Shown one piece after another: positions 25,401 to 28,400 of a stretch of DNA of 29,365 nt (position 1 is its first letter; every line of letters begins with the position of its first letter). The stretch is from NCBI RefSeq assembly GCF_003334315.1, contig NZ_QOWR01000057.1; one strand, 5' to 3'. Source of the DNA: Escherichia coli (GTDB lineage: Bacteria; Pseudomonadota; Gammaproteobacteria; Enterobacterales; Enterobacteriaceae). Made by a program: the position numbers.

Positions 25401-28400
25401 GCCCGTGCCATTTCACTGGTTGAAGAGACACGTCCATTATTACCAGGCGTGCGCGAAGCCGTTGCGTTATGCAAAGAACAAGGTTTATTGGTGGGGCTGG
25501 CCTCCGCGTCACCACTACATATGCTGGAAAAAGTGTTGACCATGTTTGACTTACGCGACAGTTTCGATGCCCTCGCCTCGGCTGAAAAACTGCCTTACAG
25601 CAAGCCGCATCCGCAAGTATATCTCGACTGCGCAGCAAAACTGGGCGTTGACCCACTGACCTGCGTAGCGCTGGAAGACTCGGTAAATGGCATGATCGCC
25701 TCTAAAGCAGCCCGCATGCGTTCCATCGTCGTTCCTGCGCCAGAAGCGCAAAATGATCCACGTTTTGTATTAGCAGACGTCAAACTCTCATCGCTGACAG
25801 AACTCACCGCAAAAGACCTTCTCGGTTAATGACCAGGGGCAGTGATCTCGCTGCCCCTGGTTCTTTATCTGAATTTGCATTCAACTGACGGATTAATCGT
25901 CAATTTAAGAGAAAGAGTTACACCGTCACCACTTCCGTGCACTGTATAAAAATCCTATACTGTACGTATCGACAGTTTAGTGAGTTTTATCATGACGGCG
26001 GAAGGTCACCTTCTCTTTTCTATTGCTTGTGCGGTATTTGCCAAAAATGCCGAGCTGACGCCCGTGCTGGCACAGGGTGACTGGTGGCATATTGTCCCTT
26101 CCGCAATCCTGACGTGTTTGTTACCGGACATCGATCACCCAAAGTCGTTTCTTGGGCAACGATTAAAGTGGATATCAAAACCGATCGCCCGCGCTTTTGG
26201 GCATCGTGGTTTTACCCACAGTCTGCTGGCGGTATTTGCGCTGCTGGCAACCTTTTACCTTAAGGTTCCTGAAAGCTGGTTCATTCCGGCTGATGCGCTA
26301 CAAGGAATGGTGCTGGGTTATTTAAGCCACATACTTGCCGATATGCTGACACCCGCCGGTGTTCCCCTGCTCTGGCCATGCCGCTGGCGTTTCCGCTTAC
26401 CTATCCTGGTTCCCCAAAAGGGCAACCAACTGGAACGTTTTATCTGCATGGCATTATTTGTCTGGTCGGTATGGATGCCCCATTCATTACCCGAAAACAG
26501 CGCTGTTCGTTGGTCATCGCAAATGATTAATACCTTGCAGATCCAGTTTCATCGGCTTATTAAGCATCAGGTTGAATACTAAAAAGGCAAAAATCACCTT
26601 TCTGTAATAAGCAATTCCATTTGAATATAAGAGCCAGCTCACAGTTCTGTTAATCTTGCGCCAACACTATGACTGCTACGCAGTGATAGAAATAATAAGA
26701 TCAGGAGAACGGGGATGAACTTTCCATTAATTGCGAACATCGTGGTGTTCGTTGTACTGCTGTTTGCGCTGGCTCAGACCCGCCATAAACAGTGGAGTCT
26801 GGCGAAAAAAGTGCTGGTGGGTCTGGTGATGGGTGTGGTTTTTGGCCTTGCCCTGCATACCATTTATGGTTCTGACAGCCAGGTACTTAAAGATTCTGTA
26901 CAGTGGTTTAACATCGTTGGTAACGGCTATGTTCAACTGCTGCAAATGATCGTTATGCCGTTAGTCTTCGCCTCTATTCTGAGCGCGGTTGCCCGTCTGC
27001 ATAACGCATCTCAGTTAGGCAAAATCAGTTTTCTGACCATCGGTACGCTTTTGTTTACCACGCTGATTGCGGCGCTGGTCGGTGTGCTGGTCACCAACCT
27101 GTTTGGTTTGACGGCTGAAGGTCTGGTTCAGGGTGGTGCAGAAACTGCACGTCTGAACGCCATTGAAAGTAACTATGTTGGTAAAGTCTCTGACCTGAGC
27201 GTTCCGCAGCTGGTCTTGTCCTTTATCCCGAAAAACCCGTTTGCCGATCTGACCGGAGCCAATCCGACGTCAATTATCAGCGTGGTAATTTTTGCCGCAT
27301 TCCTCGGTGTAGCTGCGCTGAAACTGCTGAAGGATGATGCGCCGAAAGGTGAACGCGTCTTAACCGCTATCGATACCCTGCAAAGCTGGGTGATGAAACT
27401 GGTTCGCCTGGTCATGCAGTTGACCCCTTACGGCGTTCTGGCACTAATGACCAAAGTGGTTGCAGGTTCTAACCTGCAAGACATCATCAAACTGGGAAGT
27501 TTCGTTGTCGCGTCCTACCTCGGTCTGCTGATTATGTTTGCAGTGCATGGCATTCTGCTGGGCATTAATGGCGTGAGTCCGCTGAAGTACTTCCGTAAGG
27601 TATGGCCTGTGCTGACGTTTGCCTTTACCAGCCGTTCCAGTGCTGCGTCTATCCCACTGAATGTGGAAGCACAAACGCGTCGTCTGGGCGTTCCTGAATC
27701 CATCGCCAGTTTCGCCGCCTCTTTCGGTGCGACCATTGGTCAGAACGGCTGCGCCGGTTTGTATCCGGCAATGCTGGCGGTGATGGTTGCGCCTACGGTT
27801 GGCATTAACCCGCTGGACCCGATGTGGATTGCGACGCTGGTCGGTATTGTTACCGTTAGCTCCGCAGGCGTTGCCGGTGTCGGTGGTGGTGCAACTTTCG
27901 CCGCACTGATTGTGCTGCCTGCGATGGGCCTGCCAGTAACCCTGGTGGCGCTGTTAATCTCCGTTGAACCGCTTATCGACATGGGCCGTACGGCGCTAAA
28001 CGTTAGTGGCTCGATGACAGCTGGCACGCTGACCAGCCAGTGGCTGAAGCAAACCGATAAAGCCATTCTGGATAGCGAAGACGACGCCGAACTGGCACAC
28101 CATTAATTCTTATGCTGGCAACGGTCCGTTTCATATAGGGGCCGTTGCCTTACTTTTTAAATGTTCCATCGCGGCGATGCATACTGACTCATATTTAAAC
28201 AGATCGTCAGCGAAAAAAATGTCCAACTTATCAATACATTCCTGGCTCAATGAATGTGCCTGTAGCGAGAAGCTTAAAACCTCATACCCGAGACGTTTTC
28301 TAAGTGAACTATCTGGAATACTCATAATATCTTCAAGTATACCACTTCCCATTCCCGGAAGATTTAGTGGATTAAAAAGAAGATTGATATTAAGCATTGA

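What the first reader, a model, noticed from the sequence alone, without database searches (positions are those of the whole stretch)
25940..25977. Tandem LexA boxes directly upstream of ydjM
TACTGTACGTATCGACAGTT is a perfect CTGT-N8-ACAG SOS box, preceded by and overlapping a second, degenerate box CACTGTATAAAAATCCTATA. Both sit within 40 nt of the start codon, implying tight SOS repression of this inner membrane protein.
Basis: partly seen in the sequence, partly recalled or inferred. Interest (0 to 1): 0.3.

Follow-up and report, generated by a model that had tools for sequence, protein, structure and literature searches.

The report
Known tandem LexA operator of ydjM
This is the already published pair of LexA (SOS repressor) binding sites in front of the E. 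coli ydjM gene: real and conserved, but an ordinary textbook-type feature.

Summary
TACTGTACGTATCGACAGTT lies at 25958-25977 and CACTGTATAAAAATCCTATA at 25940-25959. They share 2 nt (TA). They end 14 and 32 nt before the ydjM ATG at 25992. The window is E. coli chromosome, and this promoter is identical to K-12 MG1655.

I built a heterology-index (HI) matrix from 18 published LexA sites that do not include ydjM. With it, the two boxes are the two best 20-mers in the 29 kb window, at HI 10.99 and 12.11. Shuffles expect 0.03 and 0.15 such sites.

The layout is kept in 78 of 80 Enterobacteriaceae species and in 5 of 6 more distant relatives (Erwinia, Pantoea, Paramixta and others).

ydjM is a published LexA-regulon gene with reported tandem sites (Fernandez de Henestrosa 2000, as cited in PMC4951493). 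Salmonella has the same two boxes (PMC8072944).

Two caveats. "Tight" repression is not supported: the good box is weak for a real site, and reported induction is about 2-9 fold. The "degenerate" half of box 1 (CCTATA) is invariant and coincides with the best -10 candidate (TATACT). Box 1 is therefore probably a half-site operator laid over the promoter.

Verdict: already known, low interest.

The parts
25958..25977 (+). Proximal LexA box (box 2), TACTGTACGTATCGACAGTT. It has a full CTG-N10-CAG palindromic core and ends 14 nt before the ATG.
   Evidence: HI 10.99, the best 20-mer in the window. CTG and CAG are invariant in 80 of 80 Enterobacteriaceae loci and in 10 more distant loci. PMC11228462 quotes HI 9.0 for ydjM.
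25940..25959 (+). Distal, degenerate LexA box (box 1), CACTGTATAAAAATCCTATA. The left half-site (CACTGTAT) is canonical. The right half (CCTATA) has CTA in place of CAG.
   Evidence: HI 12.11, second best in the window. The left half is kept in 78 of 80 Enterobacteriaceae, and the CTG-to-CTG offset is 18 nt in 78 of 80. It is also kept in Erwinia, Pantoea, Paramixta and others, although the sequence just upstream has diverged. PMC4576408 lists it at -52.
25956..25961 (+). Candidate -10 hexamer TATACT, straddling the junction of the two boxes. This is inferred, not mapped.
   Evidence: TTCCGT-17-TATACT is the best sigma-70-like pair in the intergenic region. Its score of 7.68 lies in the top 0.4% of window positions, and it predicts a transcription start near 25968. 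CCTATACTG (25954-25962) is invariant in all 80 distinct upstream sequences and in the Erwiniaceae loci. The stricter consensus scan found no promoter.
25933..25938 (+). Weak candidate -35, TTCCGT (2 of 6 matches to TTGACA). Inferred.
   Evidence: It is conserved within Enterobacteriaceae but replaced by TTTATT-like sequence in Erwiniaceae.
25917..25929 (+). Conserved upstream element GTTACAcCGTCAC, made of two GTNAC units. Its function is unknown. It could be a site for a second regulator, an UP-like element, or an alternative -35.
   Evidence: GTTACA is invariant in 80 of 80 loci. The exact 13-mer occurs once upstream of ydjM in 73 of the 80 Enterobacteriaceae loci and in the Klebsiella, Erwinia, Pantoea, Paramixta and Tenebrionibacter loci. 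Its distance to TATACTG is constant even where box 1 shifts by 1 nt.
25992..26582 (+). ydjM coding sequence: 196 aa, YdjM family inner-membrane putative metal-dependent hydrolase.
   Evidence: NF008651, 375 bits; PF04307, E 8e-36.
25831..25862 (+). Terminator-like hairpin after hxpB (yniC). It marks the upstream limit of the ydjM control region.
   Evidence: 14-pair stem followed by a T-run. hxpB ends at 25829.

Best explanation
This is the known SOS operator of the E. coli ydjM promoter. A LexA dimer binds the palindromic proximal box (25958-25977). A second LexA dimer most likely binds the adjacent distal box (25940-25959), mainly through its one canonical half-site (CACTGTAT). Its other half is not a good LexA half-site because it doubles as the -10 hexamer (TATACT, 25956-25961). 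Together the two dimers would cover the promoter spacer, the -10 hexamer and the predicted transcription start (about 25968), and so block RNA polymerase. After DNA damage, RecA-stimulated self-cleavage of LexA frees the promoter and ydjM is induced a few-fold. Shown here: both sequences exist, both are statistically exceptional, and the layout is strongly conserved. Taken from the literature: ydjM expression is LexA-dependent and damage-inducible. Inferred: the positions of the -10 and the transcription start, occupancy of box 1, and any cooperativity between the dimers.
For: The sequence and coordinates are confirmed. The two boxes are the top two heterology-index scores in 29 kb, against 0.03 and 0.15 expected. 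The promoter is identical to K-12 and is present in 5423 of 5426 complete E. coli genomes, with 3583 of them at least 99% identical over the 90 nt. In 80 Enterobacteriaceae species, CTG and CAG of box 2 are invariant. Variation falls in the central positions that LexA tolerates. The left half of box 1 is kept in 78 of 80, and the 18-nt offset is kept in 78 of 80. The same layout holds at 63-74% protein identity in Erwiniaceae and relatives, even though the flanking sequence has diverged. For the literature: ydjM is in the LexA regulon, tandem sites are reported, Salmonella has two boxes at 14 and 32 nt, and induction data exist. recN boxes 2 and 3 in K-12 have the same 18-nt offset and the same 2-nt TA overlap, and there too the degenerate half of the weaker box lies at the junction. 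The best -10 candidate lies exactly at the junction of the ydjM boxes.
Against: I found no transcription start data, so the promoter assignment is only a prediction. The strict consensus scan found no promoter. Box 1 has CTA where the invariant CAG should be, and no species has improved it towards CAG. Its median HI across species is 13.7, at or beyond the range of sites expected to bind. In one Pantoea the left half of box 1 sits 17 rather than 18 nt from box 2. Two species have lost it altogether. One E. coli strain carries a 7-nt deletion inside it. I could not read the primary paper, so I cannot say what experiment showed binding to box 1.
Confidence: 0.9

Rival explanations
1. Only the proximal box is a LexA operator. 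The distal 'box' is not bound by LexA. Its conservation reflects promoter function: TATAAA or TACTGT acting as a -10 for a second promoter that uses the invariant GTTACA as its -35, together with TATACT as the main -10. On this view its resemblance to a LexA site is a by-product.
For: GTTACA (25917-25922) is invariant and lies 17 nt upstream of [T/C]ACTGT. Most species have TACTGT, which keeps the key A2 and T6 positions of a -10. The right half of box 1 is invariant but never LexA-like. The register shifts by 1 nt in one Pantoea. Median HI is 13.7.
Against: Escherichia has CACTGT and Pantoea has TACTGG, and both weaken a -10 at that place. The conserved letters are the LexA-critical CTGTAT. 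The 18-nt offset matches the accepted pair of recN boxes 2 and 3. The literature treats both boxes as LexA sites.
Confidence: 0.2
2. The boxes act as a transcriptional roadblock downstream of a promoter located further upstream, rather than occluding the promoter. The candidate upstream promoter is the CTGAAA-17-ATTAAT pair proposed from RpoD genomic SELEX, at 25869-25897 in the window.
For: Shimada et al. 2014 list a constitutive RpoD promoter in the yniC-ydjM spacer with that hexamer pair (PMC3946193).
Against: That region is poorly conserved among Enterobacteriaceae, and in this window the -35 reads CTGAAT. It scores low in the crude promoter model, 1.97 against 7.68. The SELEX assignment is a sequence-based guess within a broad peak, not a mapped start. 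In Klebsiella and Pantoea the upstream gene and spacer differ, while the block from GTTACA onward is kept.
Confidence: 0.08
3. The match is a chance resemblance with no regulatory role.
For: The bare CTGT-N8-ACAG pattern is not rare: 23 of 100 shuffles contain one.
Against: The full-matrix scores are far beyond chance. The CTG and CAG triplets are invariant across more than 85 species. LexA regulation of ydjM is published.
Confidence: 0.01

Closest known systems
The ydjM LexA boxes of E. coli K-12 (Fernandez de Henestrosa et al. 2000, as cited in PMC4951493), and of Salmonella (PMC8072944)
   Same: It is the same locus and the same sequence. The window is 100% identical to K-12 over the boxes. 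Salmonella has the same two boxes at the same distances from the ATG, 14 and 32 nt.
   Different: There is no difference. This strain differs from K-12 by one base at 25874, outside the operator.
recN operator of E. coli (three LexA boxes)
   Same: recN boxes 2 and 3 are offset by 18 nt and overlap by TA. A stronger full palindrome is paired with a weaker box whose junction-proximal half is degenerate (TAATGG). TATACTGTAC occurs at the start of recN box 2, as it does at ydjM box 2.
   Different: recN has a third, very strong box 22 nt further upstream (HI 3.9), and the weak box is on the gene-proximal side. In ydjM the weak box is distal and the best box is much weaker (10.99).
Dual overlapping SOS boxes of colicin operons (for example ColE1 cea)
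   Same: [quoted passage not shown] PMC4951493 describes this arrangement as cooperative. I verified it on ColE1 with HI 5.64 and 10.67.
   Different: The offset is 15 nt in ColE1 and 18 nt in ydjM, so the helical phasing differs. In ColE1 both boxes lie downstream of a strong TTGACA promoter. Cooperativity has not been shown for ydjM in anything I could read.
lexA autoregulatory tandem operator
   Same: Two LexA boxes lie side by side in front of the gene.
   Different: The lexA boxes do not overlap: the offset is 21 nt, two helical turns. Both are full CTG-N10-CAG sites (HI 7.0 and 8.7).

Membership tests
Gammaproteobacterial LexA operator (SOS box, TACTG(TA)5CAGTA) | 16-bp core CTG-N10-CAG | tested here: met
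   Box 2 has CTG at 25960-25962 and CAG at 25973-25975. Box 1 does not meet this feature: it has CTG at 25942-25944 but CTA at 25955-25957.
Gammaproteobacterial LexA operator (SOS box, TACTG(TA)5CAGTA) | Heterology index within the range of sites that bind LexA | tested here: met
   I used my own symmetrised matrix from 18 sites in PMC3009722. Box 2 scores 10.99 and box 1 scores 12.11; the training sites range from 1.8 to 12.2. Both are at the weak edge. The matrix is not the original Lewis 1994 matrix, so the absolute values differ from the published ones: 9.0 for E. coli, and 9.12 and 12.85 for Salmonella.
Gammaproteobacterial LexA operator (SOS box, TACTG(TA)5CAGTA) | Position overlapping or next to the core promoter or transcription start of the regulated gene | tested here: inconclusive
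   The boxes end 14 and 32 nt before the ATG. The best predicted -10, TATACT, lies at their junction. No mapped transcription start could be found, and the strict promoter scan found nothing.
Gammaproteobacterial LexA operator (SOS box, TACTG(TA)5CAGTA) | Conservation of the site in orthologous promoters | tested here: met
   Box 2 is kept in 80 of 80 Enterobacteriaceae and in all 10 additional loci. The left half of box 1 is kept in 78 of 80.
Gammaproteobacterial LexA operator (SOS box, TACTG(TA)5CAGTA) | LexA-dependent, DNA-damage-inducible expression of the downstream gene | not testable with these tools
   This rests on literature only. ydjM is listed in the LexA regulon (PMC6590174). It is induced 2.5x and 8.6x (PMC11228462), up to log2 2.6 with ciprofloxacin (PMC11002266), and 2.1x in Salmonella.
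Gammaproteobacterial LexA operator (SOS box, TACTG(TA)5CAGTA) | Direct binding of purified LexA, or occupancy in vivo | not testable with these tools
   PMC4951493 says the tandem sites were 'experimentally reported' by Fernandez de Henestrosa 2000. The primary paper and the Wade 2005 ChIP study were not available.
Tandem or overlapping dual SOS operators (recN boxes 2 and 3; colicin type) | Two LexA sites, one strong and one weak, overlapping at their terminal positions | tested here: met
   The 2-nt overlap and 18-nt offset are identical to recN boxes 2 and 3. ColE1 has an offset of 15.
Tandem or overlapping dual SOS operators (recN boxes 2 and 3; colicin type) | Cooperative binding of two LexA dimers | not testable with these tools
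   This needs binding assays. It is asserted for colicins in PMC4951493, not for ydjM.

The most novel reading that the evidence does not exclude
Two readings go beyond the known LexA boxes. First, the ydjM control region contains a second conserved element, GTTACAnCGTCAC (25917-25929, two GTNAC units). It is at least as conserved as the LexA boxes from Escherichia to Erwinia and Pantoea, and it sits at a fixed distance from the -10. It could be the site of an undescribed second regulator or activator of this SOS gene, whose -35 is very poor. Second, the 18-nt 'full box plus half box over the -10' layout, shared with recN, could be a recurrent composite operator design in which one LexA dimer is held by a single half-site.
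Probability: 0.25. Interest if true: 0.35.

Novelty: already known. Interest (0 to 1): 0.08.

Why it matters
It matters little as a discovery. ydjM has been an accepted LexA-regulon member with two LexA boxes since 2000, and the sequence here is the K-12 sequence. It adds three small refinements. The layout is conserved across Enterobacteriaceae and into Erwiniaceae. The 'degenerate' half of the distal box coincides with the likely -10. An unexplained conserved element lies upstream. The function of YdjM in the SOS response is still unknown, and that is the more interesting open question. A YdjM-family gene is also reported to be LexA-regulated in Staphylococcus aureus (PMC11442139).

Tried and rejected
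- I looked for mapped transcription starts of ydjM and found none. The supplements of Conway 2014 are not held. The Cappable-seq table is truncated and has no hit. Thomason 2015 is not held. A text search gave only the SELEX-based guess.
- I tried to read the primary sources without success: Courcelle 2001, Wade 2005 and Fernandez de Henestrosa 2000 are not held. Published HI values and the claim of experimental support are therefore second-hand.
- A literal search for the box 2 sequence in the paper library found nothing.
- The built-in strict sigma-70 scan found no promoter in 25780-26050. I then used a cruder frequency model whose consensus frequencies I recalled from memory, so its scores are indicative only.
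- I considered GTG at 25980 as the start codon (the 200-aa ORF) and rejected it. It is not conserved, whereas the ATG at 25992 is invariant and matches the K-12 annotation.
- I considered other LexA-like sites in the window and rejected them. The next best are at 3103-3122 (HI 13.6) and 24529-24548 (HI 15.3). They are single half-site-like matches at levels expected by chance; 0.57 sites at or below HI 14 are expected per shuffle.
- Rfam found nothing near the locus.

Full report
**1. What is in the sequence**

- The window reads ...CCGTG CACTGTATAAAAATCCTATA CTGTACGTATCGACAGTT TAGTGAGTTTTATC ATG....
- CACTGTATAAAAATCCTATA occupies 25940-25959. TACTGTACGTATCGACAGTT occupies 25958-25977. The two 20-mers share TA at 25958-25959.
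- The ydjM start codon is the ATG at 25992. It gives the 196-aa product annotated in K-12.
- The GTG at 25980 offered by the ORF list is not conserved in relatives, whereas the ATG is invariant.
- Box 2 therefore spans -34 to -15 and box 1 spans -52 to -33. "Within 40 nt" holds only for the proximal edge of box 1.

**2. Is it more than chance?**

- The bare pattern CTGT-N8-ACAG occurs once in the window, but 23 of 100 shuffles also contain one. That pattern alone is weak evidence.
- I built a heterology-index (HI) matrix (Berg-von Hippel form, pseudocount 0.5) from 18 E. coli LexA sites tabulated in PMC3009722. That list does not contain ydjM. I symmetrised the matrix.
- Box 2 scores 10.99 and box 1 scores 12.11. 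They are the best and second-best 20-mers in all 29,365 bases, and the third scores 13.62.
- Dinucleotide shuffles give 0.033 and 0.147 sites per window at those thresholds. The per-position rate in the shuffled intergenic region is 1.3e-5, so an adjacent second site has a chance of about 5e-4.
- Both scores sit at the weak end of the training set, which ranges from 1.8 to 12.2.

**3. Where it comes from**

- The region is E. coli chromosome: hxpB(yniC)-ydjM-tcyP(ydjN).
- Over 181 nt of promoter it differs from K-12 MG1655 at one base, 25874, outside the boxes.
- The 90-nt promoter is found in 5423 of 5426 complete E. coli genomes. It is at least 99% identical in 3583 of them.
- The protein matches Pfam PF04307 (YdjM) and NCBIfam NF008651, "metal-dependent hydrolase".

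**4. Comparative evidence**

A scan of one genome per species returned 80 Enterobacteriaceae loci with 85-99% protein identity.

- CTG and CAG of box 2 are invariant in all 80 upstream regions. Variation is confined to central positions and to CTGT/CTGG, which LexA sites tolerate.
- The left half of box 1 ([C/T]ACTGTAT) is kept in 78 of 80. It is lost in one Citrobacter amalonaticus and in Intestinirhabdus.
- The CTG-to-CTG offset is 18 nt in 78 of 80.
- Box 2 is generally stronger in other genera: the median HI is 8.78, and Escherichia at 10.99 is among the weakest. Box 1 has a median of 13.7.
- The nonamer CCTATACTG at the junction is invariant.
- Ten further loci from Klebsiella, Shimwellia, Erwinia, Pantoea, Paramixta, Tenebrionibacter and a metagenome (63-85% identity) keep the same layout. 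In the six most distant of them, the offset is 18 in five and 17 in one Pantoea. This holds although the sequence between the upstream element and box 1 has diverged.
- The left half of box 1 lies in what would be a promoter spacer. Its conservation there is best explained by protein binding.

**5. Mechanism**

- The best sigma-70-like pair in the intergenic region is TTCCGT (25933-25938), a 17-nt spacer, then TATACT (25956-25961). It predicts a transcription start near 25968.
- This comes from a crude model whose frequencies I recalled from memory. The strict scan found nothing, and I found no experimental transcription start.
- If the prediction is right, the -10 lies exactly at the junction of the boxes. 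Box 1 then covers the spacer and the -10. Box 2 covers the end of the -10, the start site and the first few transcribed bases. This is classic promoter occlusion.
- It also explains why the right half of box 1 is "degenerate" yet invariant: it is constrained to be a -10.
- With the same matrix, recN in K-12 shows an identical sub-arrangement. Its boxes 2 and 3 are offset by 18 nt and overlap by TA, the degenerate half of the weaker box is at the junction, and TATACTGTAC sits at the start of the stronger box.
- The lexA boxes are offset by 21 nt. The ColE1 colicin boxes are offset by 15 nt.

**6. Literature**

- ydjM is listed among LexA-regulated genes (PMC6590174).
- PMC4951493 states that tandem LexA-binding sites were experimentally reported for E. 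coli ydjM by Fernandez de Henestrosa et al. 2000.
- PMC8072944 tabulates Salmonella ydjM with two SOS boxes 14 and 32 nt from the ATG, HI 9.12 and 12.85, and 2.1-fold induction.
- PMC11228462 quotes HI 9.0 and induction of 2.5x and 8.6x.
- PMC11002266 shows log2 changes up to 2.6.
- PMC4576408 lists box 1 at -52.
- A YdjM-family gene is reported as LexA-regulated in S. aureus as well (PMC11442139).
- I could not read the primary papers.

**7. Verdict**

The feature is already known.
- "Tight" repression is an over-reading, given the weak HI and the modest induction.
- Whether box 1 is truly occupied by LexA is likely but not shown by anything I could access.

**8. Left unexplained**

- The 13-mer GTTACAcCGTCAC (25917-25929) is as conserved as the LexA boxes across all families sampled. 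It sits at a constant distance from TATACTG.
- It could be an alternative -35, 17 nt upstream of [T/C]ACTGT. It could also be an UP-like element or an activator site compensating for the poor -35. I have no evidence that decides between these.

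Noticed in passing
window 25917-25929: GTTACAcCGTCAC (two GTNAC units 8 nt apart) lies 11 nt upstream of box 1. 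GTTACA is invariant in 80 of 80 Enterobacteriaceae, and the 13-mer is also kept in the Klebsiella, Erwinia, Pantoea, Paramixta and Tenebrionibacter loci. Its distance to TATACTG is fixed. No known regulator is assigned to it. It could be an alternative -35, an UP-like element or a site for a second regulator.
   Followed up: partly
L083 (K-12 recN promoter) 100-137: recN boxes 2 and 3 have the same geometry as the ydjM pair: an 18-nt offset, a TA overlap, the degenerate half-site at the junction, and TATACTGTAC at the start of the stronger box. This suggests a recurrent operator design.
   Followed up: partly
L086 (E. coli NIPH17_0036), aligned to window 25950-25956: One of 5423 E. coli genomes has a 7-nt deletion inside box 1 (CACTGTATAA-------ATACTG). 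It removes the right half of box 1 and changes the spacing. It could be real or an assembly error.
   Followed up: no
window 1-77: The window starts with the terminal ~77 nt of an IS1-family element, including its inverted-repeat end, inserted in fadK (ydiD). The insertion point is 83 nt away from that of the IS1 copy in strain 2017.17.03CC. This probably explains the many extra matching places, including plasmid ones, per genome; I did not check which part of the query those places match.
   Followed up: partly
window ~18950-20850 (between thrS and yniD): The closest genome annotates a frameshifted type III effector gene, espL1, here. I did not check whether it is intact in the window.
   Followed up: no
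window 25874: This is the only difference from K-12 in the ydjM upstream region: T here, A in K-12. It falls in the -35 (CTGAAA) of the constitutive promoter guessed from RpoD SELEX (PMC3946193).
   Followed up: partly
window 10934-11092 (-) and 14933-15057 (-): Rfam hits at gathering score: sRNA STnc540, and the Phe leader upstream of pheST. Both are ordinary for this region.
   Followed up: no
L013 (Citrobacter amalonaticus) and L025 (Intestinirhabdus alba), upstream of ydjM: These are the only two of 80 species in which the left half of box 1 is destroyed, while box 2 and CCTATACTG are intact. They are natural single-box variants that could be used to test the contribution of box 1.
   Followed up: no
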